Shown here piece after piece: positions 36,483 to 50,757 of a DNA stretch of 53,268 nt. The position numbers and the translations under genes are program-made. Under the pieces are notes generated by a model that saw only the letters and a program-made list of their open reading frames with translations, was not told where the DNA came from and ran no database searches. Origin of the DNA: Escherichia phage Ecp_YSF; the sequence record OR327751.1. One strand, given 5' to 3'. Position 1 is the stretch's first letter. Each line of letters begins with the position of its first letter.

Positions 36483-36769
36483 CGATTATATGCGAGAAGA
36501 GATTCGATGCGTTAGCGTCGTTTCTCTTTGAGCTAGAATAAGACAAGTAAATTAAATATTTATTTATTCCCAATATTGCTACAATATTAAGAGTAATATT
36601 AGGAATGCGTAAAGTTAAAACCAAATGGTACATGGTCGGTCAACTGTACCTAGACATAGACTTGTTCACAATCGGTCAGCTGTATCTAGCCGGAATTTGT
36701 TCGAACAGAAGTCCGACTATGTTATAAAAATTTTTATATAATTTTTTTTAATTTAAATATTGTTACGGA

Positions 36770-36847
36770 ATTAATGAGACTCAAATTGTTTCAATATTAA
36801 TGAGACTAGAATTGTAACGATATTGACGAGACTAGAATTGTGGCAAT
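36770..36847 (+). repeat. Three tandem imperfect 26-bp repeats
   Basis: ATTAATGAGACTCAAATTGTTTCAAT / ATTAATGAGACTAGAATTGTAACGAT / ATTGACGAGACTAGAATTGTGGCAAT; core resembles T7 promoter TAATACGACTCACTATAG. Confidence 0.8.
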
Positions 36848-36852
36848 ATTAT
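36823..36852 (+). promoter_or_regulatory. Sigma70-like promoter candidate upstream of RNAP gene
   Basis: TTGACG, 18 nt, TATTAT (TATAAT also present at 36850-36855); AT-rich tract upstream at 36700-36770. Confidence 0.4.
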
Positions 36853-37030
36853 AATTTTTATTTTGGGCCAGCGGGGGAGGGGAAGCCCAACGTCCTATCG
36901 GACTTAAATACGGTCCCTACTCCAACTTTTTCCTACAGCCTATCGGCTTTCAAACAACACCAAGTTAGGCGCTTCGCTTATGGGTCAAGGTCAAAGTCTC
37001 CGTGCTGTTGTAACAATGGCACAGGTTTGT

Positions 37031-37052
37031 GATATTAGTTGGTTGTGAATTG
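37031..37052 (+). promoter_or_regulatory. Conserved phage motif copy a (candidate phage-RNAP promoter)
   Basis: GATATTAGTTGGTTGTGAATTG; matches consensus CTGAAACATTAGTTGGATGTGAA; about 65 nt upstream of RNAP start. Confidence 0.4.
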
Positions 37053-37115
37053 TGTAATGGCTACGCTATTATAATCCGTTTCAGTTAAATCATACACAAT
37101 CTTGGAGACTTACAA

Positions 37116-39056
37116 ATGATTACTATCACCACTCAAACTATCAAATCTGTTGTTCCTGCTATCACTGCTCTGGTATACCGTGCCAAAGAGAAGCAGAACT
37201 ATATGCAGCCTCAGACTTGTGCTATTGCTGCCCTAGCCATATTCAAGATGATGACGTCTTTCACTCGTGATGACGTTGTTCCTGCCATTGCGATGGTTGA
37301 GCTGGCTTCTGCTTCTATTGCTGATGCCAACCGCTACAACAACGATTTGAAAGCAATGCACTATGTTGACCCAGCTATCAACCTCATTGGTTTGGCTAAG
37401 CACTTTGGCTTCATCACCATGAACGAAGACAAGTCATTCCAGCAAACTGACACATGGGTTGAACTGGTTACAACCAAAGACACAGCAGTGCCATTCACTG
37501 AGCGTGTTACATCTGAATCTCGTCGCAAGCCTTTCGTTAAAGGTGGCAAAGTTAAGCCATCCAAAACTCTGAAAGCTGCAATCGAATTCCTGCAAGATAC
37601 TGAGTACCATGTGGAGACTGAGATGGTTCGCATCATCCAGTCCATGCTTGAGCAACGTACTTATGGTGGCTTGCAGATGCCAGAAGCAATCCAAACTGAA
37701 CTCCATGTTTGGAACAATGCTGTAGCAATGATGAATCAGGATAAGCTGTATTCTGACTACTTTGCTGATAACCGTGGTCGTCTGTATCATGTAGCATGTG
37801 CTGGTCCTAACCCACAATCCTCTGACTTTGCTCGTTGCTTGTATTCTCACAATGTTGAGAACATCGTTAAGAAGTTTAACGAAGATGGTTCTACTACCAT
37901 TGCATACAACATGTTCATGGCAGAGCTGGAAGATATTTCCGGTGGTGAATGGTGCAGTGCTAAGCGTTTAACTTATGTTGCTCAGAATCCAGCTGGTTCA
38001 CTTGCTCGCATGATGAACATGCCTAAAGCTGAGCGTCCTTCTAAGCCATTCACTTATGTTCGTCTGGCTCTGGATTGGTTCAAGTTTGAGACTACAGGTG
38101 AATGCGATTCTCGTGTAGGCTTTGGCTTAGATGCTAAATGTTCTGGTACTCAATATCTGGCATTCATTGCTGGTAACATGGAAATGGCTCGTGCAACAGG
38201 TCTGGTTGATTCTGAGACTAAAGCATCTGACCCATACCAGTTGAGTCTTCGTGAACTGTTGAAGCTGCTGGACAAGTCTTCAATGAAACCATCTCCTGAA
38301 ATTATGGATGAATTCTTGAATCCGAAAGCTGGTCGTAAGTTTATCAAAACTCCATACATGGCTATCCAATATGGTGGTGGTAAAGCTGCACTAACTGGTT
38401 CTTCTGACTTTATCTCCTACATGACAGAAGCTCTCCAGATTCCTATGGAGAAAGCTGAGGCATTTGCTGAACTGTGTGTAGAAGCAATCCATAACGCATT
38501 GGGTGCTAAGATTAACATGTTCATTGAGAAAGCTGCTGATGCTGCATACAACCGTTGTGTTGAACTTGGTAAAGAGTACATCACATACCGTCACACTGAT
38601 GGTCAGGTTGTAATGAAGCCTTGCTTCCCATCTCGTGAAATCTGTGAGGCATTCAGCATTCGTGTTGACTCCCAAACTCGTGTTATCTTTGGTCAGATTC
38701 AGGAGAATAAGCCTTGGACCATTCGTGAATCCAATCCAACTAAAGAAGAATTCAAGCGTACTTTCGTTGTTAACTACATTCAAGGTATTGACGCACTGGT
38801 TGCTCGTACTGTTGCAGTTAAAGCTAAAGAAGCTGGTCTTCGTGGCTTTACTTCAATTCACGATTGTTTCCGTTGCTGCTTAGCTGATGCTCCACGTATG
38901 ATGGAAGTTATTCGTGCAGCATATGTTGAAATCTTCGTAACCAACAATCAATTCGAGAATCTGTCTAAGCAACTCGGTGGCATTCAGATGTATCATGAGA
39001 ACATCGTAACCGAAGAGCTTCTGATGAGCGAACACGCTTACTACTTCTGTCAATAA
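37116..39056 (+). CDS. Single-subunit DNA-dependent RNA polymerase (T7-like catalytic core, compact 646 aa)
   Basis: Motif A-like LDAKCSGTQYLAF; motif B-like RKFIKTPYMAIQYGGGKA; motif C-like FTSIHDCFRC; RBS GGAGAC before ATG. Confidence 0.75.
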   Translation: MITITTQTIKSVVPAITALVYRAKEKQNYMQPQTCAIAALAIFKMMTSFTRDDVVPAIAMVELASASIADANRYNNDLKAMHYVDPAINLIGLAKHFGFITMNEDKSFQQTDTWVELVTTKDTAVPFTERVTSESRRKPFVKGGKVKPSKTLKAAIEFLQDTEYHVETEMVRIIQSMLEQRTYGGLQMPEAIQTELHVWNNAVAMMNQDKLYSDYFADNRGRLYHVACAGPNPQSSDFARCLYSHNVENIVKKFNEDGSTTIAYNMFMAELEDISGGEWCSAKRLTYVAQNPAGSLARMMNMPKAERPSKPFTYVRLALDWFKFETTGECDSRVGFGLDAKCSGTQYLAFIAGNMEMARATGLVDSETKASDPYQLSLRELLKLLDKSSMKPSPEIMDEFLNPKAGRKFIKTPYMAIQYGGGKAALTGSSDFISYMTEALQIPMEKAEAFAELCVEAIHNALGAKINMFIEKAADAAYNRCVELGKEYITYRHTDGQVVMKPCFPSREICEAFSIRVDSQTRVIFGQIQENKPWTIRESNPTKEEFKRTFVVNYIQGIDALVARTVAVKAKEAGLRGFTSIHDCFRCCLADAPRMMEVIRAAYVEIFVTNNQFENLSKQLGGIQMYHENIVTEELLMSEHAYYFCQ

Positions 39057-39073
39057 CATTAATTGGGTCAAGG

Positions 39074-39298
39074 ATGACCACAAACTTGGAGACTACAATG
39101 AATACCATGCAAATCAATCAAATCGAAAACTGTTTCAATCCTCATCACACCTGTGACATGAGTGATTTATCTCGTCCTACGGTGGAGGAGACTAAAGACT
39201 TCTTAGAATTGTTATCAGAATATAAGCAAGAGTCGCATGTATTATTGCACGCATTCTTGCATAATTCTGGATTCTTTGATACAGAAATACCGTTCTGA
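39074..39298 (+). CDS. Hypothetical small acidic protein (74 aa)
   Basis: ATG-initiated ORF after RNAP; in-frame ATG at 39098 with GGAG upstream is an alternative. Confidence 0.4.
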   Translation: MTTNLETTMNTMQINQIENCFNPHHTCDMSDLSRPTVEETKDFLELLSEYKQESHVLLHAFLHNSGFFDTEIPF

Positions 39299-39303
39299 TA
39301 CTT

Positions 39304-39328
39304 GGGAGCTTCGGCTCCCTATTTTTGT
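39304..39328 (+). terminator. Rho-independent terminator
   Basis: GGGAGC-ttcg-GCTCCC followed by TATTTTTGTTCT. Confidence 0.75.
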
Positions 39329-39367
39329 TCTAATTAATCTTAGAGCTGGCTTCAATATTGTAGCCAG

Positions 39368-39392
39368 TTGTAACATTAGTTGGATGTGAAGT
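39368..39392 (+). promoter_or_regulatory. Conserved phage motif copy b
   Basis: TGTAACATTAGTTGGATGTGAAGTA. Confidence 0.4.
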
Positions 39393-39599
39393 AACAGAAT
39401 ACGGAGAAGTATTCCGCATGTCATGTTGAAATCATTCTAGAAACATTTCAGCATGTCAACTAAACATACAGCGTTGTAATGATGTGGCAATCATTGAACT
39501 CCCTGTCTTTGGCCGGACAAAGTTCCAGCAACCATGTGTGAAGTAGGAATATCATTCGAAACTGTTCTTCAAATAAACATGACTTATCCCTAAAGAAGC

Positions 39600-40320
39600 T
39601 GGGACAGCTCATGTAGTACCAGCATGTTCAATTGTGACAATATTGCTCCATCTCCTATTATAAAGGCCCACCCACAAGCCGGGAGATAACTTTGGTAATA
39701 TTGGAACTTTTGGACATGCTTCTTTCTTTCAATCAGAATTCGAAAGAAGAGAAGAGTCGGAGCAAAGCCGCGAAACTAATCCCGTAGCCCGCCCCGATTT
39801 TGAGCAACAAATATTGTGACAATTTTGTCGCAGTATGGCATGTAAATATTGCTACAAATTGGCATGTTGGAATGTGGCAGAATTGTTAGAGGACTAATCC
39901 CCTCGAAGATACAATCGTCTACCAATCTGGCATGTTATTTTTGTAACAGTATTTGTGCCAATTTCGCATGTATTAGCTGTATCAGTATTAACCCAATATT
40001 CTTGCAACCCGCATGAATACTGGCTTCCAGCCAAGCGAAGGCTTTATCATCGCATGTAAATATTGTGACAATATTGGGATAAAACCCTTTATTTAATTAG
40101 TTTTATTATGCTGTACATGGTCGGTTTTCCGTACCTGCTTGCTCCAATCTTAATGTGCCAAATACGTTAAGTATGGGAGTAAACCTGTAATTAATGGTGC
40201 ATGTTTAATTGTGACAAAATTCGTCTATTTGGCAGATGAATTAGTTGCAATTAAGCATGTTCATTTATCATTAGTTGCATGTGAATAAGACCAAATCTCT
40301 GTAAATTCTGCCGAAATTGT
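39600..40320. repeat. Cluster of operator-like palindromes (AATATTGTGACAATATT family), each preceded by GCATGT
   Basis: Copies near 39616, 39810, 39836, 39925, 40050 (perfect 17-bp palindrome at about 40063-40079), 40197; related AATATTGCTACAATATT at about 36567. Confidence 0.7.
40265..40290 (+). promoter_or_regulatory. Conserved phage motif copy c
   Basis: TTATCATTAGTTGCATGTGAATAAGA. Confidence 0.4.
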
Positions 40321-40484
40321 GTGACAGATTTTAGAGAGATTATGTCTCCAAGCTAATCATTGCAGTTTTTCGACACTTTGTGTGTCACATATAGCCTGTG
40401 AAAAACGTGTGGTATATTGCTGGATTGCGACGCGCCCACCAGACTAGGAAGTCACTGACGGCGGCACACACAGGAATACTATAT

Positions 40485-40555
40485 AACTCCCTACAACTTT
40501 AAGGTGGATTGAGGTAAGACAAGACCTCCACAATCGTTCTGTAGGGAGTTCTTTT
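40485..40555 (+). promoter_or_regulatory. Long-range stem enclosing an inner hairpin, then U-tract, 8 nt before the RBS of the first small gene
   Basis: AACTCCCTACA (40485-40495) pairs with TGTAGGGAGTT (40540-40550); inner GTGGA/GAGG...CCTC/CAC; followed by CTTTT and AGGAG-ATG. Confidence 0.45.
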
Positions 40556-40571
40556 AACTCAGGAGAATAAA

Positions 40572-40790
40572 ATGACTCGTTTTAAAGATTTGGTAGATGG
40601 TGCAATCTTCTTTACGCGTGGTGGGGAACATCTGCAAAAGGTTTTGGAAGATGACATTAATGTAAATGCTGTATTCGTTGGTGATTCTAACATTGGTGTT
40701 TTATTAAATGACAATGAAAGGACTTTTACCGAGGAGGAGTTTAAAGAAATCTCAGCCTCTGATTTAGTTCAAGAGCCAATTGAAGTTTAA
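40572..40790 (+). CDS. Small acidic protein (72 aa), first gene after control region
   Basis: Strong RBS AGGAG; about 16 Asp/Glu versus about 7 basic residues. Confidence 0.55.
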   Translation: MTRFKDLVDGAIFFTRGGEHLQKVLEDDINVNAVFVGDSNIGVLLNDNERTFTEEEFKEISASDLVQEPIEV

Positions 40791-40833
40791 TGCGTGGGAG
40801 GGGGAGTAAACCCTCCAAATTTGGAGAGCAGAA

Positions 40834-41064
40834 ATGAATTATGCACTGTATTGTTATTTAAACAAGCAAGGCTTTGTTAAGCACGCCCTAGTTAACATTA
40901 AAACTAAGGAAGTATTATTGGCCGACCAATCAATTGTTGATTTCAGATTGGTATGGAAGAAAGCAATGCATCCTGGACATGTTTGGGAAACAATTCAGTT
41001 GGATAAGCACCACAAAATTGTGGCAACTGCTACTCGTCCAGACCATATTCTACCAAGAGGTTAA
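40834..41064 (+). CDS. Hypothetical protein (76 aa)
   Basis: RBS GGAGAG before ATG. Confidence 0.5.
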   Translation: MNYALYCYLNKQGFVKHALVNIKTKEVLLADQSIVDFRLVWKKAMHPGHVWETIQLDKHHKIVATATRPDHILPRG

Positions 41065-41066
41065 TC

Positions 41067-41255
41067 ATGGACTTCATCGTCTACTTTAAGTTAAATGGTG
41101 TGGAGCAAAGATTGTACTTCAATTCTTTACTTCGTCTGCAACAGTGGGCGGAGAAGTTTGTTGGGTATGACTTTGAATACATCAACGCATGTACACCTGA
41201 CGAACATGAGGAAATCGTGTTCAGTTCATTGAGCCAAATTCTGGAGGCAAAATGA
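41067..41255 (+). CDS. Hypothetical protein (62 aa)
   Basis: RBS GAGG before ATG. Confidence 0.45.
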   Translation: MDFIVYFKLNGVEQRLYFNSLLRLQQWAEKFVGYDFEYINACTPDEHEEIVFSSLSQILEAK

Positions 41256-41500
41256 CGCAGTTTAAATTGAAGGCCGACTTAATAGAGTTGGCCTCTTATG
41301 AAGAAAAGATTGAGTTCATACAAGAGCGTCTTGTTGTCAACTTTAATAATTGGATACACCTTCCAGTAAGTGATGTAGTTAAAGAAGTTAAAAATGATTT
41401 CGGCATCGAAATCACAAAAAGACAATTCAATAAAGATGTTATGACTGACCGAATCATGGACAGTTTGATTAACAACTTTATGTCCTACAAAGGTATGTGA
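41252..41500 (+). CDS. Hypothetical protein (82 aa)
   Basis: RBS GGAGG; ATGA overlap with upstream gene. Confidence 0.5.
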   Translation: MTQFKLKADLIELASYEEKIEFIQERLVVNFNNWIHLPVSDVVKEVKNDFGIEITKRQFNKDVMTDRIMDSLINNFMSYKGM

Positions 41501-41502
41501 TA

Positions 41503-41676
41503 ATGAACGACCAGCAATTCAACACATTCATGCAGCAAATTAATCATCAAGAATTGATGGACACTCTCAAAGGCAAGAAGCCAGTCGAACGTCAATATCG
41601 TAAAATTGATAATTATATGCCAACCATTATTGCATGTGTTGGATTTCTAATTGTTCTCTACTTCCTGGTGAAATAG
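41503..41676 (+). CDS. Small membrane peptide (57 aa, C-terminal TM helix)
   Basis: Not in ORF track (below 60 aa); ends IIACVGFLIVLYFLVK. A further 27-aa hydrophobic ORF follows at 41677-41760. Confidence 0.35.
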   Translation: MNDQQFNTFMQQINHQELMDTLKGKKPVERQYRKIDNYMPTIIACVGFLIVLYFLVK

Positions 41677-41773
41677 ATGGATATTGTAAAGAAACTAGTA
41701 TTCTGTATTATGATGTTCCCACTTGTGCTACTTGTTGTTGGCGCATTCATGTACTTTTAATGCCGGAGTTATT

Positions 41774-42037
41774 ATGGCTACCAGAACAGGCATGATGATT
41801 GTCCCAAGCCGTAATAACTCTTTAAGCGGCTTTACACCATATAAAATCTATGAAGTGATTTCTGGCACTGGTGAAGCAAACCTGTCAGAAGTTGCTTTGA
41901 AGTTGGGCCGTATGGTCCATTCCGAAATCTCCTGTAACGTAGTTGATGATGAAGGTAAAATCCGTTTTGTAACAATGGATTTCTTTCGTGAATTTAACCT
42001 CAAATCTGAGATAGGTGTTTTATATCATGAAATTTAA
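41774..42037 (+). CDS. Hypothetical protein (87 aa)
   Basis: ATG with GGAG upstream; track ORF starts earlier at 41723. Confidence 0.45.
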   Translation: MATRTGMMIVPSRNNSLSGFTPYKIYEVISGTGEANLSEVALKLGRMVHSEISCNVVDDEGKIRFVTMDFFREFNLKSEIGVLYHEI

Positions 42038-42254
42038 ATGTGTTGCTTCAACCAAAGATTATGTTCCAGTTGGCTTCATCGTTGAGGGTGAAGCTATCTC
42101 GCCTTTGGAATTTAAAGTGACTAAATCTGCTGAGAATGTGTCTCCAGCATTTCGTAAAGGTGCTGTAGTGCCTATGAATGGTGCATTCTGGACATGGCAG
42201 CGTGACCATGAAGCAGAATTTGCAGATATTTGTGAACAAGGGTTATTGCAATGA
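42027..42254 (+). CDS. Hypothetical small protein, paralog family member A
   Basis: Starts MKFKCVASTKDY, ends with WTWQRD motif. Confidence 0.45.
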   Translation: MKFKCVASTKDYVPVGFIVEGEAISPLEFKVTKSAENVSPAFRKGAVVPMNGAFWTWQRDHEAEFADICEQGLLQ

Positions 42255-42481
42255 CAAAGTTTAAGTGCGTGAAATCGACCTCTTCATCTGAATACTCTCC
42301 GAAAGTTGGAGATGTGATTGAGGGGAGGATTATGCACGTAGAGCGGAGAGGCAAAATCGAGCCTCGCATACTCCTTTCAAAAGTCAGTGACCGTAAAGAT
42401 GCCAATGGCAATCCATACTTTGGTGAAGGAGAAAATATTCCTTTAGAGGGTGGAATCTGGTCCTGGGAAGAAGTTAAATAA
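42251..42481 (+). CDS. Hypothetical small protein, paralog family member B
   Basis: Starts MTKFKCVKSTSS, ends GGIWSWEEVK; similar to the preceding gene. Confidence 0.45.
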   Translation: MTKFKCVKSTSSSEYSPKVGDVIEGRIMHVERRGKIEPRILLSKVSDRKDANGNPYFGEGENIPLEGGIWSWEEVK

Positions 42482-42544
42482 TTTCCTCAACCATTCTTAT
42501 AATGAGAGTGGTTGCTGAATATTATTAATTAACTTGGAGCATTT

Positions 42545-42835
42545 ATGAAACAACGTACTCGTTTACAGCGTGACCCCGCCACAGGCCGCTTGTTACCAGC
42601 ATATTTGAAAGTTGGTGACTTAGTTTACACTCGTGACTTTGCTTTTGATATTTGCCCAAGCAAAGCATATGAAGTTCTCGCCACCAGCTTGTCTGGTCCT
42701 AAAGTAATATTTGGTGCTCTTGAGCCAATCCAGTTAACTGGAACTCAGTTTGTCATTAAAGATGAATCTGGTTGCAATCGTATCTTCAATCTCGAAGGTG
42801 GATTATCCAAATGGGAGAAGGTGAAGCGTGGGTAA
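42545..42835 (+). CDS. Hypothetical protein (96 aa), possibly related to the paralog family
   Basis: C-terminus GGLSKWEKVKRG resembles GGIWSWEEVK. Confidence 0.45.
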   Translation: MKQRTRLQRDPATGRLLPAYLKVGDLVYTRDFAFDICPSKAYEVLATSLSGPKVIFGALEPIQLTGTQFVIKDESGCNRIFNLEGGLSKWEKVKRG

Positions 42836-43061
42836 GAATTATATCGAAATGTTTAAACGACTGACCGTCAATGGGCAGGAGTTCTTGCTGAATGATGCAA
42901 GGCAAGATATCGAATTGTCTGACAAGTATTCTTATTTTGACCAAAAGACAATTGTGAAGTGGACATTCTCTTACATGTCCGCCAATACTCCCGGAGAAAC
43001 GCTTGTGATTAGCGGCTCTGGTGATTCCGTATTATCCGCTTTGGAGAAACTAAAGCAATGA
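42828..43061 (+). CDS. Hypothetical protein (77 aa)
   Basis: GTG start with GGAGAAGG upstream. Confidence 0.4.
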   Translation: MGKNYIEMFKRLTVNGQEFLLNDARQDIELSDKYSYFDQKTIVKWTFSYMSANTPGETLVISGSGDSVLSALEKLKQ

Positions 43062-43345
43062 ACAAGAATTCAGTCTTACGTTATGTTGGTAAAACAAATT
43101 ACAACTTTACCAACGGTAAGAAATACAAAATCGTCGCAGGTCGTGGTGACGGGGTTCCTCGCAACAACGGTACACTCGGTGCGTATATTCAATCTCCTTT
43201 GGGTTTTGTCGTTAATGACGATAACCGCAATTTATGTTATCGCACATTCTCCGATAATTGGGAACTTGTGAAAGATTCTGGTGAAGTTAGTTGGTATAAA
43301 CCTGAATCAAACATTGACCCAATTCCTGTATCGAAGGTGATGTGA
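43058..43345 (+). CDS. Hypothetical protein (95 aa)
   Basis: ATGA overlap with upstream gene. Confidence 0.45.
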   Translation: MNKNSVLRYVGKTNYNFTNGKKYKIVAGRGDGVPRNNGTLGAYIQSPLGFVVNDDNRNLCYRTFSDNWELVKDSGEVSWYKPESNIDPIPVSKVM

Positions 43346-43500
43346 GGATTGAATATTAAATACCTAATACTGACACTTACTATTAGCGTTGTTATACTTA
43401 CGATTGTTATAGGCTTTGCCAACCTGCTGCTATTACAAGCAGGAATATAAACTGGCGCGTTAAATTAACAAGGAGCATTCATTGAGTGTTCCTGATTAAT

Positions 43501-43521
43501 CTGACATTAGTTGCGTGTGAA
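43501..43521 (+). promoter_or_regulatory. Conserved phage motif copy d
   Basis: CTGACATTAGTTGCGTGTGAA, 22 nt upstream of ATG 43543. Confidence 0.4.
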
Positions 43522-43542
43522 TAACAACTTTTGGAGGTATTT

Positions 43543-44064
43543 ATGTTTTACACTGGTGTGGGAAGTCGTGAAACTCCCGAGCATATTTGCGAACTGCTGA
43601 CTAAAGTAGCTTCCAAACTGGCCAGGCTTGGCTGGGTAGTTCGTACGGGAGGTGCTCAAGGTGCTGACGAAGCATTCCTGGCTGGCTGCAACGGAAGGAC
43701 AGAGAACTTTATACCTTGGAATGGTTTTGGAAGTTATGGTGGCGTAGTACCGGACCTGAATCGAAATTGGGAATACCTGCAAAGTGTTGAAAACGTAAAC
43801 CCGCTAATTCACAAGAAAGAAACCAGAAACCTCGACAAATACAGAGGATTTTGGAAACTGCAGGCACGAAATGTTAGTCAGGTACTTGGGCTTAACTTAG
43901 ACACTCCATCCAAGTTCTGTATCTTGTACGCTCTGACAACATCAACTGGTGTGAGCGGAGGCACCAACACTGCATATCAGGTTGCAGTGCAGTCTGGAAT
44001 ACCTTGTTTTAACCTGTTTGACCCTGCTGTAGTAGCAAGGTTTGAGAAATTTGTATCTGAGTGA
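43543..44064 (+). CDS. Rossmann-like SLOG/DprA-like protein (possible nucleotide-binding or processing)
   Basis: N-terminus MFYTGVGSRETP ... VVRTGGAQGADEAFLAGC. Confidence 0.35.
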   Translation: MFYTGVGSRETPEHICELLTKVASKLARLGWVVRTGGAQGADEAFLAGCNGRTENFIPWNGFGSYGGVVPDLNRNWEYLQSVENVNPLIHKKETRNLDKYRGFWKLQARNVSQVLGLNLDTPSKFCILYALTTSTGVSGGTNTAYQVAVQSGIPCFNLFDPAVVARFEKFVSE

Positions 44065-44100
44065 TTATCAGGGTGCATTTACGAGTGTACCCGAATAATC

Positions 44101-44119
44101 CAATTAGTTGGATATGAGG
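44101..44119 (+). promoter_or_regulatory. Conserved phage motif copy e (variant)
   Basis: CAATTAGTTGGATATGAGG. Confidence 0.35.
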
Positions 44120-44189
44120 GACAAAGCTATTCCGTGGTTAGCAATGTCACTGAAACTTAAACTGTAATTAACTTAAGAGAATCTTAATC

Positions 44190-44564
44190 ATGGCACAATA
44201 TTCAGATGTAAACACTGGCATTATCGGTCCTAACGGCTTCAAGAAAGACCCAAAACATCCTGACATTCGTGGGCGTATTAACGTTGACGGAATCTGGTAT
44301 TGGGTATCTGGCTGGAATAAGCAAGCAAATGGTAATGAATTTACCTCACTTGCATTAACCATCATGACCCAAGAACAGGTTGATGAAATGATGCGTAAGC
44401 GTGAAGAGAAAGCTAAAGCCAAAGCTCAACCTCAAGCTGCCGCTCAACAGCAACAGCAACGCCAGCAACCTTCTGCGCAACAGCAAGCTCCTACTCAACA
44501 ACAGCAGCAGAGCAACTATAACCCGAACGAGCCGAAAGATTTCGACGACGACATTCCGTTCTAA
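44190..44564 (+). CDS. Small protein with Q-rich linker and SSB-type C-terminal tip DFDDDIPF
   Basis: Last 8 residues DFDDDIPF match the conserved SSB acidic tip; preceded by a Q/A-rich low-complexity linker; N-terminal domain only about 60 aa. Confidence 0.55.
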   Translation: MAQYSDVNTGIIGPNGFKKDPKHPDIRGRINVDGIWYWVSGWNKQANGNEFTSLALTIMTQEQVDEMMRKREEKAKAKAQPQAAAQQQQQRQQPSAQQQAPTQQQQQSNYNPNEPKDFDDDIPF

Positions 44565-44685
44565 TGGAGATGCCCTATGAAAATTCTATGTTTTATGGGG
44601 CTACATAATTGGGAAATTTCACACGAAAACGATTATGTAACCATTTGGGTTTGCAAACACTGTGCAGTAATGCGTGAGGAATATC

Positions 44686-45411
44686 ATGGGAGCTAGAATC
44701 TTCGAAATTCCAGTAAATCTGGTTAAGAATGGTGATACACTTTGGTATGGAAATAAAGAGTATCCAATCGTAAATGTAGTACGTCTACGAGACTGCACAA
44801 CACTTAACTACTTATTGGGAAAAGACCAGAGCGGATACTTTAACTTCGAAAACAGTCGAATTGTTAAACTCATCGACAAACAAAATGAATTCAATATTCC
44901 TTACACTGCGGTGTCACCAACAATTGAGTTCCCTAATCAAATAAAACCAGCATTCCTTCCTGTGGAGGAGTTCAAGAAGCAGGAAATATCCGATGAAGAA
45001 GATGTTCTCGGAAAAGATGTGGAAGTTGGTGACGTTATTTGGTACAACGCCAATTGGGCAACTGTTACAAATGTGTACAAACATCCAAACTCGCCATACA
45101 ACAAAGTCAATATTGACTACGATGGTGTAAAAGGTTTGCAAGTACGACTAACGTTAACCGGAACTTACTCAAGAAAGGTAAGAGCAGTAATGGAAACATT
45201 AAATATTCAAAATGCAATCGAAGCACAACGAATTCTTCTGCAAAAGCTGGAGCAAATGCTGGAAGCAATCCTACTTGAGCCAGGAGAAGATGGCAAGATT
45301 GCGGTAGTAAACACATCGTTTCGTGTTGATAAGGCAACAGTTGTTAAAGTAACGCGAGATGAAATGAAAGCTGCCGCAAACAAATCCGCAGAGCTTATCA
45401 AGAAGCTGTAA
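44686..45411 (+). CDS. Hypothetical protein (241 aa)
   Basis: ATG with GAGGA upstream; coiled-coil-like C-terminal third. Confidence 0.5.
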   Translation: MGARIFEIPVNLVKNGDTLWYGNKEYPIVNVVRLRDCTTLNYLLGKDQSGYFNFENSRIVKLIDKQNEFNIPYTAVSPTIEFPNQIKPAFLPVEEFKKQEISDEEDVLGKDVEVGDVIWYNANWATVTNVYKHPNSPYNKVNIDYDGVKGLQVRLTLTGTYSRKVRAVMETLNIQNAIEAQRILLQKLEQMLEAILLEPGEDGKIAVVNTSFRVDKATVVKVTRDEMKAAANKSAELIKKL

Positions 45412-45417
45412 TTAACA

Positions 45418-45455
45418 GAGGCCATTCCACTTCGAGTGGCCTCGATTAATTATTG
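45418..45455 (+). terminator. Terminator-like hairpin
   Basis: GAGGCCA-(12 nt loop)-TGGCCTC followed by GATTAATTATT. Confidence 0.4.
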
Positions 45456-45597
45456 GAGGATTTATGTGGGATATTTATCTTGAAGGTGTTGACGAGCCAA
45501 TTTCAACACTTAATACACAATTTATTGCAGTTGGGTGTGCAATTCTTTATAAAGGTAAGTTACACACTGTATCTAAAATCGTTCAGAGGTTTTAATT

Positions 45598-45957
45598 GTG
45601 AAACTTAAGTACATTATTATTTATACTTTAGCATTAATTGTTTTGGCATTCTTTAGCTTTGAGTCTAAAGCGTCAACAAAGAACTTCAAATGTGGAGCGT
45701 ATACTCTTGTAGTTGATAACATCGGAGACAGCCAACCTCTGATTGCGTCAATAATTCCTGAAGCTGGTGTTTGGATAGAGGTTCCAAGTGATGAACCCAA
45801 TCCTGCAACAGTTTTATTTTACAACATTAAAGATAGCAGGTTTGCTGCACTGTTTATAAATCATGAAGATAAACTTGTGCTACAGATTTTCCGTGATGGG
45901 GATTTCCTCAAAGCAAACTATCCTGTCTTGTCCACCAGCTGTACGGAGAAGAAATGA
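45598..45957 (+). CDS. Secreted / periplasmic protein with N-terminal signal peptide
   Basis: MKLKYIIIYTLALIVLAFFSFESKA signal-like N-terminus; GTG start with GAGG upstream. Confidence 0.45.
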   Translation: MKLKYIIIYTLALIVLAFFSFESKASTKNFKCGAYTLVVDNIGDSQPLIASIIPEAGVWIEVPSDEPNPATVLFYNIKDSRFAALFINHEDKLVLQIFRDGDFLKANYPVLSTSCTEKK

Positions 45958-46187
45958 CTTCAACAGAATTTATTATTGATGGGGTTCAATACCTGCTGGA
46001 ATCCAATTGCGAGTATCGCCATTGGGCAGTAATTCACGACCGAGTTGTAAAATACTTGGAACGTGTAGGGAAGGAAACTGCTAAATCTATGCTGTTTGAG
46101 GCAACAGTTCTTGGAACAACCTCAATCAATAAAGAATTAGTGTCTTTCAAATTAACCATTCACCCTAGTGGGAATAGCTTTCAATGA
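45954..46187 (+). CDS. Hypothetical protein (77 aa)
   Basis: ATGA overlap. Confidence 0.45.
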   Translation: MTSTEFIIDGVQYLLESNCEYRHWAVIHDRVVKYLERVGKETAKSMLFEATVLGTTSINKELVSFKLTIHPSGNSFQ

Positions 46188-46459
46188 TTTCAATAGACCA
46201 AGTTCCAGTTGAACTAAGTAAGGCAAAAGGTAAGCTAGATGATGCCAAATCTGACTTATCTACCTTTGATTTAAATGCTCCGGCCGATAAAGTTAAGGTT
46301 TTCATCGACTGTATTGATGGATGGGTGCTTATTGAGCATGGAGTCCTTCGAGCATTACTTGTTGATGAAGTTGCCAAGGCTCAGGAAGCATTTGACGAGA
46401 TTGATAACCTCAACACACTGTTAAACAACACTTTAAGCGATGCGCTAAAGGATAAGTAA
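46184..46459 (+). CDS. Hypothetical protein (91 aa)
   Basis: ATGA overlap. Confidence 0.45.
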   Translation: MISIDQVPVELSKAKGKLDDAKSDLSTFDLNAPADKVKVFIDCIDGWVLIEHGVLRALLVDEVAKAQEAFDEIDNLNTLLNNTLSDALKDK

Positions 46460-46854
46460 TGAATGTTAAGCTCGGTCAACGTTCTTTGGACCGACTTAAG
46501 GGAGTAAATCCTTCATTAGTTGCAGTTTTCAAACGTGCATGTGAAACGATGCCTTTTGATGTGACTGTTTTGGAAGGTTTACGCTCTTATGAACGTCAAC
46601 AAGAACTATTAAAACAGGGTGCAACCAAAGTTTCAGTTAGCCGACACATGTCAGGCAACGCTTTGGACATTGCGCCGTACCCAATTGACTGGAATGACCT
46701 TGAACGATTCCAAATTGTGGCTGAACACATGTTCAAAGCCGCAGAAGAGCTTGGAGTTGTTATTCGCTGGGGCGGAACATGGGAACGAACCTTCACTAAG
46801 CCAGTGAAATGGGCCAAGTTCCTTGATGCACCGCACTTCGAACTTCCGGCATAA
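46459..46854 (+). CDS. Peptidase M15-like (VanY / L-alanyl-D-glutamate peptidase-like) zinc peptidase
   Basis: Motifs SRHMSGNALDIAP (H-x6-D) and DAPHFEL. Confidence 0.6.
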   Translation: MNVKLGQRSLDRLKGVNPSLVAVFKRACETMPFDVTVLEGLRSYERQQELLKQGATKVSVSRHMSGNALDIAPYPIDWNDLERFQIVAEHMFKAAEELGVVIRWGGTWERTFTKPVKWAKFLDAPHFELPA

Positions 46855-46862
46855 CTTCATCA

Positions 46863-47153
46863 ATGGAGCATCCGATGGAATATCAGGAAATACCGAAAGA
46901 GTTAGAGCGTATGCAATCTCGCACATATCGTGCAGGGGCAGAACTCCACCAGCATTTGTCAAACTATGTGAACGATTCTCGAAATCTCAGGTCCGAAATT
47001 GCGGTTGATGGTTGTTGCTATCTGGTAACATACGACGAGAAGACCGCCATACTAGACATGCTAGTAAAGGGTGGAAAAGAGCGAATTGAACAGCTCAAAA
47101 TCCTTAATGCGGAACTTCAAGGCATGTGGGAGAAACTCAATGCAAAACGATAA
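46863..47153 (+). CDS. Hypothetical protein (96 aa)
   Basis: ATG-initiated; coiled-coil-like C-terminus. Confidence 0.45.
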   Translation: MEHPMEYQEIPKELERMQSRTYRAGAELHQHLSNYVNDSRNLRSEIAVDGCCYLVTYDEKTAILDMLVKGGKERIEQLKILNAELQGMWEKLNAKR

Positions 47154-47688
47154 CATTGCTCAAGCAGTAGAACAGCTTAAGTCCTGGCGTAGAGATGAAA
47201 CCTTATTGGTTCGTTTCTACACAGGCGAAACTAATTCTGAATTTGTAGATGCGTGGATTGATGGCCTGTCTTGGCGTCATTATGATTTCGACATGCGGGA
47301 GTATTTGCATGAAGAATATGGCATCGAGTATCCAGAATCCGGTACATACGACGTAATTGAATCGAATGAGGAAGATGTTACCGAAGTTTGCTTTGTTGAC
47401 GGGCTGTTCAGCATTCGTAAATATGACAAGTTCAACGAACTGCTTGTTGATACTGACTTGGACGTAATTCTTGCGGCATTCCGTAGCGGTGATATCGACA
47501 TTTTCACTGTAGACGATTTGAATGACAAGGTTATTTGCCGATGTGATTCAATTGCGGATTATTTCCAGCAATATGATGGCATAGAAGTTCCAGACCATCT
47601 TCGTCCATATATCGATTGGGATGCAGTTGCGAGAGATTACGGAAGTGATTACACTTTCTCCGAAGGGATACTATTCTCAAATGCGTGA
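47140..47688 (+). CDS. Acidic protein, ArdA-like anti-restriction candidate
   Basis: Highly acidic; segments VDAWIDGL and YIDWDAVARDYGSDYTF resemble ArdA blocks as recalled from memory; start taken at ATG 47140. Confidence 0.4.
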   Translation: MQNDNIAQAVEQLKSWRRDETLLVRFYTGETNSEFVDAWIDGLSWRHYDFDMREYLHEEYGIEYPESGTYDVIESNEEDVTEVCFVDGLFSIRKYDKFNELLVDTDLDVILAAFRSGDIDIFTVDDLNDKVICRCDSIADYFQQYDGIEVPDHLRPYIDWDAVARDYGSDYTFSEGILFSNA

Positions 47689-47920
47689 TTTAAATATCGC
47701 TGAACTTGAGGCTGGATTGATTGTCCACCACCAGCCTCGAAACACTTTCTATCGTATTCTTGGGCCTACAAAGATTAAAACTCATTGCGGAAGTTGGGTA
47801 GATGGGTTTGCTTACCAAGAAGTTAAGAAGTACGGGGACCATACTTTCTTAAGTATTGATTCTTCTACTATCTACACACGACCGAAAGAGTTATTTGACT
47901 CAGATTGGAAAACGCTATAG
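47681..47920 (+). CDS. Hypothetical protein (79 aa)
   Basis: ATG 47681 overlapping upstream stop. Confidence 0.4.
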   Translation: MRDLNIAELEAGLIVHHQPRNTFYRILGPTKIKTHCGSWVDGFAYQEVKKYGDHTFLSIDSSTIYTRPKELFDSDWKTL

Positions 47921-47984
47921 TTCCAGGCGGGTTTCTTCGAAGTGCCAAGCGGGTTTTGTACTCGCATTGGCCTTCGGCTTTAGT

Positions 47985-48008
47985 CTGAAACATTAGTGGG
48001 ATTTGATT
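47985..48008 (+). promoter_or_regulatory. Conserved phage motif copy f
   Basis: CTGAAACATTAGTGGGATTTGATT. Confidence 0.35.
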
Positions 48009-48124
48009 CTGACCACTTAGGGAAGAAAGGCATTATACACTTATCGCCAAATGGGTGTCAAGCACTTTCTTCATTTATTTAATTTATTCTTATTATTCTT
48101 TTTGTTTGGAATATTGGAATAATC

Positions 48125-48147
48125 CTGAAACATTAGTTGGAATTGGA
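48125..48147 (+). promoter_or_regulatory. Conserved phage motif copy g
   Basis: CTGAAACATTAGTTGGAATTGGA immediately before ATG 48148. Confidence 0.4.
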
Positions 48148-48324
48148 ATGATTAAAGTTCTGGAAAAAGATAACGTAACCTTCGCACGTCAGTGTGGAGG
48201 ATGTTTCTCTGTAGTATCTTACGTGTTCTCTGACTTAAAGATGTACACAGGAAAGAATGACCGAGGATACTTCGCATACAGATTCATTACTTGTCCTGTT
48301 TGCAAGAAGAGTATTCGGCATTAG
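48148..48324 (+). CDS. Small Cys-containing protein (58 aa)
   Basis: Motif copy g abuts the ATG; C-terminal CPVCKK; the track's longer ORF (48055) would contain the motif. Confidence 0.35.
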   Translation: MIKVLEKDNVTFARQCGGCFSVVSYVFSDLKMYTGKNDRGYFAYRFITCPVCKKSIRH

Positions 48325-48337
48325 TTGGAATTGAAAC
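48317..48337 (+). promoter_or_regulatory. Conserved phage motif copy h
   Basis: CGGCATTAGTTGGAATTGAAA; overlaps stop codon of the upstream ORF. Confidence 0.35.
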
Positions 48338-48352
48338 AACATCAGATAAGAG

Positions 48353-48417
48353 CTTTGTAACTAGGTAGTCCGTCTGGTACCAAGACGTGTGAGAACGTTC
48401 GATTCGTTCTACAAAGC
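48353..48417 (+). ncRNA. tRNA-like structured element (acceptor-like stem and canonical T-arm; reduced D region)
   Basis: CTTTGTA pairs with TACAAAG (extendable to 11 bp); hairpin CGTCT-GGTACCA-AGACG; T-arm GAACG-TTCGATT-CGTTC; followed by CTCTTTTCG. Confidence 0.4.
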
Positions 48418-48969
48418 TCTTTTCGATGGAATGTTTCCATCATATACATTTATCTTTTAACATAGGCCAAAGGGCCGGAATACTTATTCGCAGAAAAGCT
48501 ATTCACTTGTTATAGGCGATGTATTGGGATGAATTAGAACTAAATAAGCAAGCTGTTAGGGCTGAATAATTAGAGGGTTGTGCCTCATGCTTATGTTAGT
48601 CATTCGAAAATAGGTTTGTGCCACAAGCTGCTGGTGCTCTGAGGAAGTCGGACAAACAGGGCTTAGAGTGGCATAATCCGCACAAAACCGCGCCACCAGC
48701 TATGCCAAAGCAGGTGGATTGGGTGAATGTATTGGGAAGGGTTGCAAAGCCTCTGCGAGCACGGTATCGCGTATAATAAGTGACGTCTGCGCTGCGTGTA
48801 TCGCACCCTAACGGGAGTAACCCTTCGCCAATGCAGTTATCCAGAATTGACACAAACGGTAGGCAGTGGCCCGATTTTCGGCCTTCCTGTGCTACCCTGT
48901 GGCCTGTTTCATGGGCCAAAAGATGAGAAGAGAAGTCACAAACCCCGAATCGAAAATTGGAGAGTTCCT

Positions 48970-49260
48970 ATGATTCGCAAACATTCTATCCGGGTAATTA
49001 AGGCCCGTAATATTCACACAGGAGAGATGGAAGCATTCGCTTTCTTGGGTGGAAAGTTTTATTTATTTGGTTGGGAAGGAAGTGATTTAAAGTTTGAATT
49101 CTTTATGAATATGTACTCGATTAAAGAGTTGTTAAACAATGCGACCTACGGACCATCCTACATGGAATATTGTTTCGGCAAGCCAGTCGAGCATCTTCTG
49201 TCCAAATCTTTCATTTACAGCTGGACAACAAACCAACCAGTTTACGGAGTTCCATTTTGA
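48970..49260 (+). CDS. Hypothetical protein (96 aa)
   Basis: ATG with GGAGAG upstream. Confidence 0.45.
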   Translation: MIRKHSIRVIKARNIHTGEMEAFAFLGGKFYLFGWEGSDLKFEFFMNMYSIKELLNNATYGPSYMEYCFGKPVEHLLSKSFIYSWTTNQPVYGVPF

Positions 49261-49547: not shown

Positions 49548-49548
49548 A

Positions 49549-50223: not shown

Positions 50224-50247
50224 GTCGTTTGACGAATCAGAGCAGTT

Positions 50248-50272
50248 CTGAAACATTAGTTGGATGTGGAAA
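50248..50272 (+). promoter_or_regulatory. Conserved phage motif copy i
   Basis: CTGAAACATTAGTTGGATGTGGAAA. Confidence 0.4.
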
Positions 50273-50685: not shown

Positions 50686-50726
50686 GTTGCCGATGGCAAA
50701 CTTGAGAGACTAAGCTAAATCGATCT

Positions 50727-50757
50727 GGCATGCACTGGGAGATCTGCCAGTGCTGCC
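50727..50757 (+). other. Stable hairpin downstream of last small gene
   Basis: GGCA-t-GCACTGG (8-nt loop) CCAGTGC-t-GCC; no U-tract. Confidence 0.35.

What the first reader, a model, noticed from the sequence alone, without database searches (positions are those of the whole stretch)
37116..39056. Unusually compact T7-like single-subunit RNA polymerase (646 aa) at the right end of the genome
The ORF has the three catalytic signatures of T7-type RNAPs (D-x-x-CSG-x-Q; K...YGGG; IHD) but is about 240 aa shorter than T7 RNAP (883 aa), so most of the N-terminal promoter-binding domain seems absent. The gene lies after the structural and lysis genes rather than in an early region, and has both a sigma70-like promoter and a phage-motif copy upstream.
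Basis: partly seen in the sequence, partly recalled or inferred. Interest (0 to 1): 0.7.

Follow-up and report, generated by a model that had tools for sequence, protein, structure and literature searches.

The report
Chaseviridae phage's compact single-subunit RNA polymerase
The ORF is the already-annotated T7-type RNA polymerase of GJ1/ST32-like (Chaseviridae) coliphages; it really is about 240 residues shorter than T7's enzyme, but it is the phage's first, early gene inside the terminal repeat, not a late gene at the right end.

Summary
The ORF 37116..39056 (+, 646 aa, 72.8 kDa) is real and carries every catalytic signature of T7-type single-subunit RNA polymerases. It is 99.7% identical to gp1 of Escherichia phage ST32 and 92-93% identical to gp1 of phiEcoM-GJ1. 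That enzyme was published in 2008 as the "podovirus-like RNA polymerase" of a myovirus, and it is a hallmark gene of the family Chaseviridae.

The compactness is genuine and conserved across the family (about 600-670 aa, down to 35% identity). Profile and structure comparisons place the losses mainly in the N-terminal domain and the thumb. The palm, fingers and specificity loop are kept.

The "right end / after lysis genes" placement is an artefact. The window is a circularised assembly (its first 141 nt equal its last 141 nt). In related phages with mapped ends the gene lies inside the 2.3-3.2 kb direct terminal repeat, as the leftmost gene, followed by about 13 kb of small early genes.

The upstream "phage motif" (ATTAGTTGGATGTGAA) is the putative promoter proposed in 2008. 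It has 10 co-directional copies, all in the early region. Nobody has tested it, and the enzyme has never been characterised biochemically.

Verdict: already known and modestly interesting. Its value is as an unstudied, naturally minimal single-chain polymerase.

The parts
37116..39056 (+). RNA polymerase gene (646 aa plus stop; 72.8 kDa; pI 6.2). Approximate regions from the T7 alignment: reduced N-terminal domain aa 1-~161; shortened thumb aa ~162-208; palm/fingers aa ~209-646.
   Evidence: Tblastn finds it 99.7% identical to ST32 gp1.
38130..38153 (+). Motif A, D339-A-K-C-S-G-T-Q346 (catalytic Asp equivalent to T7 D537)
   Evidence: (invariant D339, S343, G344, T345, Q346)
38346..38381 (+). 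Motif B, K411...Y419-G-G-G (equivalents of T7 K631 and Y639)
38856..38864 (+). Motif C, I581-H582-D583 (catalytic Asp equivalent to T7 D812)
38607..38750 (+). Region aligned with the T7 specificity loop (aa 498-545; predicted beta-strands 506-537; FSIR...R-VIFG conserved, intervening residues variable)
37413..37445 (+). Short beta-hairpin (aa 100-110) aligned with the T7 intercalating hairpin region; 9 residues shorter than in T7
37104..37107 (+). Shine-Dalgarno GGAG, 8 nt before the ATG
   Evidence: the same start is used for ST32 (PMC6266442)
37034..37049 (+). Copy 1 of the repeated motif ATTAGTTGGTTGTGAA (putative phage promoter of Jamalludeen 2008), 67 nt before the start codon
37043..37074 (+). 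Sigma70-like promoter candidate (TTGTGA-N18-TATTAT; TATAAT at 37069-37074), overlapping the motif
   Evidence: Weak: chance-level match, and the -10 is not conserved outside close relatives.
36901..39759 (.). Stretch equivalent to the direct terminal repeat as mapped in Erwinia phage Y2 and predicted in Mangalitsa (about 2.86 kb). It contains the leader, the RNAP gene, a 74-aa ORF, a terminator and motif copy 2. By the PYps23T measurement the equivalent stretch would be 37045-39384.
   Evidence: Inferred by homology, not measured for this genome.
39074..39298 (+). Small conserved ORF (74 aa; PHROG 20790, function unknown) immediately after the RNAP gene, inside the repeat
39304..39329 (+). Intrinsic-terminator-like hairpin GGGAGCTTCGGCTCCC followed by a T-run
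   Evidence: a terminator is annotated at the equivalent place in SA91KD
39375..39390 (+). Motif copy 2 (exact ATTAGTTGGATGTGAA)
40270..50270 (+). Eight further motif copies, all on the + strand, starting at 40270, 43506, 44103, 47992, 48132, 48320, 49923 and 50255. Several lie just before ORFs; 49923 falls inside the called ORF 49492-50223. Copies precede the DprA-like gene and the SSB gene.
36759..36852 (+). Three tandem 26-bp repeats. The third forms the best sigma70-like site of the region (TTGACG-N18-TATTAT, 10 of 12). They lie just outside the repeat-equivalent stretch.

Best explanation
This is the single-subunit, T7-type DNA-dependent RNA polymerase of a Carltongylesvirus (family Chaseviridae; the phiEcoM-GJ1 / ST32 / flopper group), assembled here as a circular contig.

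Shown:
- It is an orthologue of ST32 gp1 and GJ1 gp1.
- It keeps the complete polymerase core: DxxGR, motifs A, B and C, the ribose-discriminating Tyr, and a specificity-loop hairpin.
- It is confidently predicted to adopt the ssRNAP fold.
- It is short because of defined deletions relative to T7. About 200 residues are lost before the palm: T7 1-~70, ~165-213, 9 residues of the intercalating hairpin, 266-275, 298-316, and thumb residues 372-399. About 35 more are lost from the fingers.

Inferred:
- The gene lies in the direct terminal repeat, so it is the first gene at the left end and is present twice per virion DNA.
- It is transcribed first by host sigma70 RNA polymerase from a promoter in the ~200-bp leader.
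- The enzyme then transcribes the phage, whose annotated genes are essentially all on one strand, from the ~20-bp motif (A)ACATTAGTTGGATGTGAA. One copy precedes its own gene, giving positive feedback. Nine more are spread over the next 13 kb.
- The motif-free 39 kb of replication, structural and lysis genes are reached by read-through.
- Promoter recognition would rest mainly on the retained specificity loop plus a pared-down N-terminal domain that lacks the AT-rich recognition loop.
For: Identity:
- Pfam RNA_pol E=3.7e-18.
- PHROG 414 'RNA polymerase' E=6.7e-98, covering profile positions 155-816 of 816.
- 95.8% nucleotide identity to phage flopper over the locus.
- 99.7% amino-acid identity to ST32 gp1. 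The ST32 paper lists ORF1 as 646 aa and 72.7 kDa, and GJ1 gp01 as 648 aa.
- The BFVD best match is the GJ1 RNA polymerase, TM 0.96.

Fold:
- AF2 model with pLDDT 92.4 and pTM 0.86.

Deletion map:
- hhalign of the family profile against the T7 family: probability 98.75%, E=1.5e-16, q88-641 = T7 214-881.

The compactness is a family trait:
- 119 homologues, mostly 626-670 aa, down to 35% identity. 56 columns are invariant, including all catalytic residues.
- No other ORF in the window resembles the T7 N-terminal domain or the Spp001 N-terminal extension.

Position:
- The window has a 141-nt terminal overlap.
- Repeats contain the gene in Mangalitsa, PYps23T, Y2 and 4HA13.
- The ICTV profile states that genomes are linear with about 3 kb repeats.

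Motif:
- 10 copies against 0.78 expected, all on the + strand and all within 37.0-50.3 kb.
- No conserved -10 element at a fixed distance.
- The core and its placement are conserved in Erwinia phage Y2 (RNAP 70% identical) and in a Hafnia element (53% identical).
- SA91KD annotates it as the GJ1 promoter.
Against: - No experiment exists. [quoted passage not shown]
- The motif is absent (at 3 mismatches or fewer) from the 39 kb of replication, structural and lysis genes. This is the opposite of T7, where phage promoters are spread through the middle and late regions. Read-through is an assumption.
- The reduced N-terminal domain resembles that of N4 RNAPII, which cannot use promoters unaided.
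- In PYps23T both measured repeat boundaries fall inside motif copies, which hints at a role in end formation instead of, or as well as, a promoter role.
- The sigma70-like site before the gene is a chance-level match with a poorly conserved -10.
- The mapping of q1-87 onto T7 71-164, and hence the loss of the AT-rich loop, rests on an insignificant alignment (probability 0.8%).
Confidence: 0.72

Rival explanations
1. Cofactor-dependent minimal polymerase. Like N4 RNAPII, the enzyme cannot find or open promoters by itself. A phage early protein would recruit it, for example the SSB at 44190-44564, the DprA-like protein, or the 74-aa ORF next to the gene. The repeated motif would be that factor's binding site.
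Against: The protein is a single chain. The region aligned to the specificity loop is kept, with conserved FSIR/R-VIFG residues. By my own count from the printed sequence it is close to neutral (about +1), whereas the N4 RNAPII loop is described as too negatively charged to bind DNA. The motif is a long, asymmetric, one-strand sequence of about 20 bp. In size and orientation that is typical of T7-type promoters (own knowledge). No homologue of N4 gp1, gp2 or Drc was looked for specifically.
Confidence: 0.2
2. The repeated motif is not this polymerase's promoter. It would be a site for genome-end formation, replication or a regulator. The enzyme's real promoters would be something else, possibly degenerate and still unrecognised.
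For: In PYps23T the 2,339-bp repeat begins and ends immediately after ATTAGTTGGA within two motif copies (measurement described in PMC8762354). There are no motif copies in the middle or late gene regions. The ICTV profile regards the promoters as unidentified. All hosts of motif-bearing phages seen here are Enterobacterales, so a host factor cannot be excluded. No comparable motif was found in the Shewanella phage or the Pseudomonas element with a simple k-mer scan.
Against: There are ten copies but at most two ends. Y2 (measured) and Mangalitsa (PhageTerm) have ends elsewhere, and these agree with each other to within 5 bp at both boundaries. All copies are co-directional with the genes, and several lie just upstream of ORFs, as expected of promoters. 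The motif co-occurs with the polymerase across 53-100% identity.
Confidence: 0.2
3. The ORF is a truncated, split or decaying polymerase gene. The missing N-terminal part would be encoded elsewhere, or lost through a frameshift or an assembly error.
For: Mangalitsa-type records annotate a 704-aa product. A 69-aa ORF lies upstream in another frame.
Against: The 626-670 aa length and the N-terminal sequence (...IKSVVPAI...) are conserved in more than 100 clusters down to 35% identity. The 58-aa Mangalitsa extension comes from a 174-bp insertion that carries its own duplicated Shine-Dalgarno sequence. The upstream 69-aa ORF has no PHROG match. No ORF in the window matches a T7 N-terminal-domain profile or the Spp001 N-terminus; all hits have E>0.5. 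The model is compact and confident from residue 6 onward.
Confidence: 0.03
4. It is a family A DNA polymerase or a primase-like enzyme rather than an RNA polymerase.
Confidence: 0.01

Closest known systems
gp1 RNA polymerase of Escherichia phages phiEcoM-GJ1 (648 aa) and ST32 (646 aa), family Chaseviridae, genus Carltongylesvirus
   Same: It is the same gene: 99.7% (ST32) and 92-93% (GJ1) amino-acid identity. It has the same neighbours (endolysin, nrdB, then RNAP, then small early ORFs) and the same repeated motif.
   Different: Nothing of substance. This copy comes from a circularised assembly, so its coordinates are rotated.
T7 RNA polymerase (883 aa; Autographiviridae)
   Different: It is 237 aa shorter. 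There is no counterpart of T7 1-~70 or ~165-213 (subdomain H). The intercalating hairpin is 9 aa shorter. T7 266-275, 298-316 and thumb 372-399 are absent. Pfam RPOL_N is not detected. T7 His784 is an invariant Gln (Q556). The gene lies inside a ~2.3-3 kb terminal repeat, against 160 bp in T7 (own knowledge). The host phage is a myovirus. The putative promoters are confined to the early region.
N4 RNAPII (gp15 269 aa + gp16 404 aa)
   Different: N4 RNAPII is a heterodimer that binds only single-stranded DNA, needs gp1 and gp2, and has an acidic specificity loop. The present enzyme is one chain. By my own count from the sequence its loop is roughly neutral. Whether it needs a cofactor is unknown.
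Mitochondrial RNA polymerases (yeast Rpo41, human POLRMT)
   Different: Those enzymes are far larger (887-1062 residues in the solved chains), with extra N-terminal domains. They require initiation factors such as Mtf1 or TFAM/TFB2M.
RNA polymerase of Nefertitivirinae (e.g. Shewanella phage Spp001, annotated 781 aa)
   Same: It is a collinear homologue, 34% identical over q68-644, in the same phage family and with the same genomic neighbourhood.
   Different: It carries about 125 extra N-terminal residues, if the annotated start is right. These residues have no detectable counterpart in the window.

Membership tests
T7-like single-subunit RNA polymerases (Pfam RNA_pol, PF00940) | Significant match to the family profile above the curated threshold | tested here: met
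   66 bits against a cut-off of 22, E=3.7e-18, aa 323-621. hhalign to the T7 family gives probability 98.75%.
T7-like single-subunit RNA polymerases (Pfam RNA_pol, PF00940) | Two catalytic aspartates (T7 D537 in motif A, D812 in motif C) | tested here: met
   D339 and D583 are aligned to them and invariant in 68 sequences.
T7-like single-subunit RNA polymerases (Pfam RNA_pol, PF00940) | Motif B Lys and Tyr (T7 K631, Y639; Y639 selects ribonucleotides) and the DxxGR motif (T7 D421-R425) | tested here: met
   K411, Y419 and D218-N-R-G-R222 are all invariant.
T7-like single-subunit RNA polymerases (Pfam RNA_pol, PF00940) | Right-hand fold closer to ssRNAPs than to family A DNA polymerases | tested here: met
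T7-like single-subunit RNA polymerases (Pfam RNA_pol, PF00940) | Specificity-loop beta-hairpin in the fingers | tested here: met
   Predicted strands 506-537 align to the T7 739-770 region. Whether it contacts DNA was not tested.
T7-like single-subunit RNA polymerases (Pfam RNA_pol, PF00940) | T7-type N-terminal domain (Pfam RPOL_N, PF14700) with AT-rich recognition loop and full intercalating hairpin | tested here: not met
   RPOL_N gives no hit at E<=1, whereas T7 itself hits at 1.2e-34. Only q88-178 maps to T7 214-342, and the hairpin is 9 aa shorter. The loss of the AT-rich loop is suggested only by an insignificant alignment. This feature is also lacking or altered in accepted family members such as N4 RNAPII.
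T7-like single-subunit RNA polymerases (Pfam RNA_pol, PF00940) | Promoter-specific, DNA-dependent RNA synthesis by the single polypeptide | not testable with these tools
   No biochemical data were found in the literature.
Chaseviridae hallmark RNA polymerase (GJ1 gp1 orthologues) | High identity to gp1 of classified members, and the conserved gene neighbourhood | tested here: met
   99.7% amino-acid identity to ST32. Synteny endolysin, nrdB, RNAP, early ORFs is shared with flopper, PYps23T and Mangalitsa.
Chaseviridae hallmark RNA polymerase (GJ1 gp1 orthologues) | Gene located within the long direct terminal repeat at the genome's left end | tested here: inconclusive
   This holds for PYps23T, Y2, Mangalitsa and 4HA13. 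The boundary sequences are conserved in the window. However, this assembly has collapsed any repeat and its ends were not measured.
N4 RNAPII-type heterodimeric minimal RNAP | Two separate subunits splitting the polymerase | tested here: not met
   A single 646-aa ORF covers both parts.
N4 RNAPII-type heterodimeric minimal RNAP | Dependence on ssDNA-binding cofactors (gp2, Drc) | not testable with these tools
   An SSB gene exists at 44190-44564, but no interaction can be inferred from it.

The most novel reading that the evidence does not exclude
The chasevirus enzyme is a naturally minimal, self-sufficient, single-chain promoter-specific RNA polymerase of about 73 kDa. It would recognise a ~20-bp promoter (ACATTAGTTGGATGTGAA) using essentially only its specificity loop and a stripped-down N-terminal domain. 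It would have no AT-rich recognition loop, no subdomain H (and hence no T7-style refolding on promoter escape), and only half a thumb. It also carries Gln in place of T7 His784. A more speculative extension is that its promoter copies flanking the gene help define the ends of the terminal repeat, as the PYps23T boundaries suggest.
Probability: 0.3. Interest if true: 0.55.

Novelty: already known. Interest (0 to 1): 0.3.

Why it matters
As a gene this is ordinary. It is a family hallmark described in 2008 and used by the ICTV for classification.

What remains open is biochemical. No one has purified this enzyme or mapped its promoters, and the ICTV profile says so explicitly.

If it proves self-sufficient, a 73-kDa orthogonal polymerase with a short promoter would be a useful addition to T7, SP6 and Syn5-type tools. 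It would also be a natural experiment on how much of the T7 N-terminal domain and thumb is needed for promoter opening, promoter escape and processivity.

If it needs a cofactor, it would be a single-chain counterpart of N4 RNAPII. That would support the view that T7's autonomy is the exception among these enzymes.

For genome scanning, the practical lesson is that 'position in the genome' read from a circularised contig is meaningless. The first 141 nt of this window equal its last 141 nt.

Tried and rejected

2. Missing N-terminal part encoded elsewhere. tblastn and an hmmsearch with a T7 N-terminal-domain profile against all six frames gave nothing better than E=0.6. PHROG scans of neighbouring ORFs found nothing RNAP-like.

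3. Structured RNA in the conserved ~200-bp leader. There are no Rfam hits in the window. RNAalifold gave no covariation support, with a covariation term of +0.62.

4. The motif as a sigma70 promoter. There is no conserved -10 element at a fixed spacing after the motif copies.

5. A lineage-specific promoter motif in the Shewanella phage Spp001 and in a Pseudomonas element, as a covariation test. Simple k-mer scans found only coding repeats in a tail-fibre gene and weak candidates. The result was inconclusive.

6. The 2008 GJ1 paper (PMC2223254) is not held in the library. Its promoter proposal is known here only through the SA91KD annotation.

7. Mapping q1-87 to T7 71-164. Only an insignificant alignment was obtained (probability 0.8%), so I treat it as a hint.
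Full report
**1. The observation**

No longer version is possible in that frame. A GGAG lies 8 nt before the ATG.

The three signatures are present at the stated kind of spacing. They are D339-AK-CSG-T-Q346, K411...Y419-GGG and I581-H582-D583. The DxxGR motif is also present, at D218-R222. The protein is 72.8 kDa, which is 237 residues fewer than T7 RNAP (883 aa).

**2. What it is**

Pfam RNA_pol matches at E=3.7e-18, 66 bits against a cut-off of 22. PHROG 414 ("RNA polymerase") matches at E=6.7e-98. That match covers only profile positions 155-816, which is a first sign that the N-terminus is short.

The 6-kb neighbourhood is 95.8% identical to Escherichia phage flopper and about 90-96% identical to a set of other coliphages. 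The protein is 99.7% identical to ST32 gp1. It is 70-77% identical to the Erwinia phage orthologues and about 34% identical to those of Shewanella and Aeromonas phages. All of these belong to the family Chaseviridae.

The ST32 paper lists ORF1 as a 646-aa, 72.7-kDa RNA polymerase, 93% identical to the 648-aa gp01 of phiEcoM-GJ1 (PMC6266442). The GJ1 paper of 2008 has the "podovirus-like RNA polymerase" in its title. The ICTV profile treats the enzyme as a hallmark of the family (PMC12842549). So the gene is already known and annotated.

**3. Is it really compact, and what is missing?**

A search of 5.8 billion proteins returned 119 relatives. Nearly all are 626-670 aa, down to 35% identity. 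In a 68-sequence alignment 56 columns are invariant, including every catalytic residue. The short length is therefore a conserved family property, not a truncation.

A profile-profile alignment of the family against a T7-family profile has probability 98.75% and E=1.5e-16. It maps q88-641 onto T7 214-881. Read against the T7 domain boundaries, which I take from my own knowledge of the T7 structures, the mapping is:
- N-terminal domain, T7 1-325
- thumb, T7 326-411
- intercalating hairpin, T7 ~230-245
- AT-rich loop, T7 93-101
- subdomain H, T7 ~152-205
- specificity loop, T7 739-770

On that basis the differences are:
- The hairpin region is kept but is 9 residues shorter (q100-110).
- T7 266-275 and 298-316 are absent.
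- The segment AIEFLQDTEYHV aligns with T7 AINIAQNTAWKI.
- T7 372-399 (thumb helix) is absent.
- q196 corresponds to T7 400.
- The fingers lack about 35 residues, mainly around T7 589-611.

The first 87 residues have no significant alignment. A weak one (probability 0.8%) pairs q6-85 with T7 71-164 and gaps out the AT-rich loop. T7 1-70 and ~165-213 have no counterpart. Pfam RPOL_N detects T7 but not this protein.

No other ORF in the window encodes anything like the missing parts.

About half of the pre-palm region is gone, a reduced core and a short hairpin remain, and the thumb accounts for a good share of the loss.

Two further points:
- T7 His784 is replaced by an invariant Gln, Q556.
- The sister subfamily's enzyme (Spp001, annotated 781 aa) is collinear but has about 125 extra N-terminal residues.

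Other phage RNAP-like proteins of 599-699 aa appear among the BFVD matches. N4 RNAPII totals 673 aa in two chains. The size is therefore small but not unprecedented.

**4. Where the gene really sits**

The window's first and last 141 nt are identical. This is the signature of a circularised assembly, so window coordinates say nothing about genome ends.

Chasevirus genomes are linear, with terminal repeats of about 3 kb. Four relatives give direct information:
- In PYps23T the repeat was measured at 2,339 bp (PMC8762354). The record carries it at both ends, identical. It maps to window 37045-39384.
- In Erwinia phage Y2 the repeat is 2,608 bp.
- In Mangalitsa PhageTerm predicts 3,234 bp.
- In 4HA13 the predicted repeat is 3,120 bp (PMC9699118).

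The Y2 and Mangalitsa boundaries agree with each other to within 5 bp at both ends when aligned to the window. The left end is at about 36901-36905, within CCTATCG|GACTTAAA. The right end is at about 39754-39759, within AGAGTCG|GAGCA.

Either way the whole RNAP gene lies inside the repeat. It is the leftmost gene and is present twice in virion DNA.

Downstream of it come about 13 kb of small ORFs, including a DprA-like protein, an SSB and an anti-restriction protein. The replication genes follow (window 585 onward), then packaging, structural and lysis genes, and then nrdB at 35382-36482. This is the same order as in Y2.

The apparent position "after the lysis genes" is simply the junction between the unique region and the right-hand repeat copy.

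**5. Signals around the gene**

The repeated "phage motif" is the sequence that SA91KD annotates as "similar to promoter of phiEcoM-GJ1 (Jamalludeen 2008)".

With up to 3 mismatches to ATTAGTTGGATGTGAA there are 10 copies, against 0.78 expected. All are on the + strand and all lie between 37034 and 50270. Several are directly upstream of ORFs. Conservation extends to about 20-22 bp (aACATTAGTTGGATGTGAAnaAC). No -10 element follows at a fixed distance. This argues against a sigma70 promoter and fits the size of T7-type promoters.

The core and its placement recur in Erwinia phage Y2 and in a Hafnia element whose RNAP is 53% identical. In each case one copy lies before the RNAP gene, one or more lie just after it, and further copies are spread through the downstream early-gene region.

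No copy exists in the remaining 39 kb.

A sigma70-like site overlaps copy 1: TTGTGA-N18-TATTAT, with TATAAT at 37069-37074. Such sites occur at chance frequency in this region, 12 found against 11.8 +/- 3.6 in shuffles. The -10 also degenerates in Mangalitsa and Y2.

The ~200-bp leader contains blocks conserved as far as Y2. I found no Rfam match and no covariation support for an RNA structure. These blocks are more likely DNA signals for ends or promoters.

**6. How it most likely works**

Shown:
- It is an intact ssRNAP orthologue with a complete catalytic core and a region aligned to the T7 specificity loop.
- By homology it is encoded in the terminal repeat.

Inferred:
- Host RNA polymerase transcribes it first from the leader.
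- The enzyme then initiates at the motif copies, including the one before its own gene.
- It transcribes the genome, whose annotated genes are essentially all on one strand, and reaches the late genes by read-through.
- Recognition depends mainly on the specificity loop. The loop keeps the conserved FSIR...R-VIFG residues around variable positions. By my own count from the sequence it is about neutral in charge.

The main rival is an N4 RNAPII-like dependence on a cofactor. This is prompted by the reduced N-terminal domain and by the fact that most ssRNAPs other than T7 need factors.

A second rival is that the motif is not the promoter at all. This is prompted by its absence from the late regions, by the ICTV's statement that promoters are unidentified, and by the PYps23T repeat boundaries falling inside two motif copies.

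None of these can be settled without experiments.

**7. Novelty and score**

The gene, its family, its unusual presence in a myovirus and the candidate promoter are all in the literature or in database annotation.

The following appear not to have been published, judging from searches of the held library:
- the explicit deletion map relative to T7
- the confident structural model
- the His784-to-Gln substitution

I rate the finding "already known" with interest 0.3. The interest lies in the enzyme being an unstudied, naturally minimal single-chain polymerase.

Noticed in passing
window 1-141 and 53128-53268: The first 141 nt are identical to the last 141 nt. The window is a circularised assembly with a unit length of 53,127 bp, an arbitrary origin and any terminal repeat collapsed.
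   Followed up: yes
L004 1-2339 and L005 (Yersinia phage PYps23T); window 37034-37049 and 39375-39390: The experimentally measured 2,339-bp terminal repeat of PYps23T starts and ends immediately after ATTAGTTGGA, inside two copies of the putative promoter motif. Y2 and Mangalitsa have ends about 140 bp further left and about 375 bp further right. Either end formation differs between close relatives, or the motif plays a part in it, or the PCR-based mapping was misled by the repeated motif.
   Followed up: partly
window 36575, 36759-36851, 39632, 39814, 40063, 40209: A near-palindromic element ATATTGTGACAATAT occurs about nine times, including three tandem 26-bp repeats. All copies lie in the non-coding DNA flanking the RNAP gene. 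Some copies overlap sigma70-like sites. It looks like an operator or iteron for an unknown dimeric protein. A similar cluster (GTGTGACTTTGTAG) follows the RNAP gene of Spp001.
   Followed up: partly
L011 6881-21947 (Hafnia alvei chromosome, GCA_002206365.2); L013 1-19732 (Pseudomonas assembly): Compact RNAP homologues (648 aa at 53% identity; 632 aa at 36% identity in the alignment) sit in chasevirus-like gene arrays that include an integrase and abut host genes. In Hafnia the order is integrase, holin, endolysin, RNAP, ArdA and onward. In Pseudomonas it is baseplate, lysozyme, RNAP, small ORFs, integrase, then the host ahpC. These look like integrated, temperate relatives of a family that the ICTV describes as lytic.
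   Followed up: partly
window 38781-38783 (Q556): The residue aligned with T7 His784, which contacts the 2'-OH and is mutated in T7 variants that accept 2'-modified NTPs (own knowledge), is Gln in all 68 aligned family members.
   Followed up: no
L001 211-384 (Mangalitsa); P0001: Mangalitsa-type genomes carry a 174-bp insertion just before the RNAP start. It is in frame and has its own copy of the Shine-Dalgarno sequence TTGGAGACTT. It produces a 704-aa annotation, represented by a cluster with 271 member sequences. Whether it is a fused extension or a separate 58-codon upstream ORF is unknown.
   Followed up: no
window 36901-37100: The non-coding leader at the predicted left genome end has blocks conserved as far as Erwinia phage Y2: AATACGGTCCCT, AGCCTATCGGCTT, AACACCAA, AAGGTCAA, GCTACGC and AATCCGTTTCA. 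It also has a direct repeat of CCTATCGG that spans the Y2/Mangalitsa end. There is no Rfam hit and no RNA covariation. These may be packaging or end-recognition signals.
   Followed up: partly
window 50686-53268: The stretch between the last motif copy and the replication genes has unusually large gaps between called ORFs (519, 277 and 299 bp). No tRNA genes were found in the window, although some relatives carry one.
   Followed up: no
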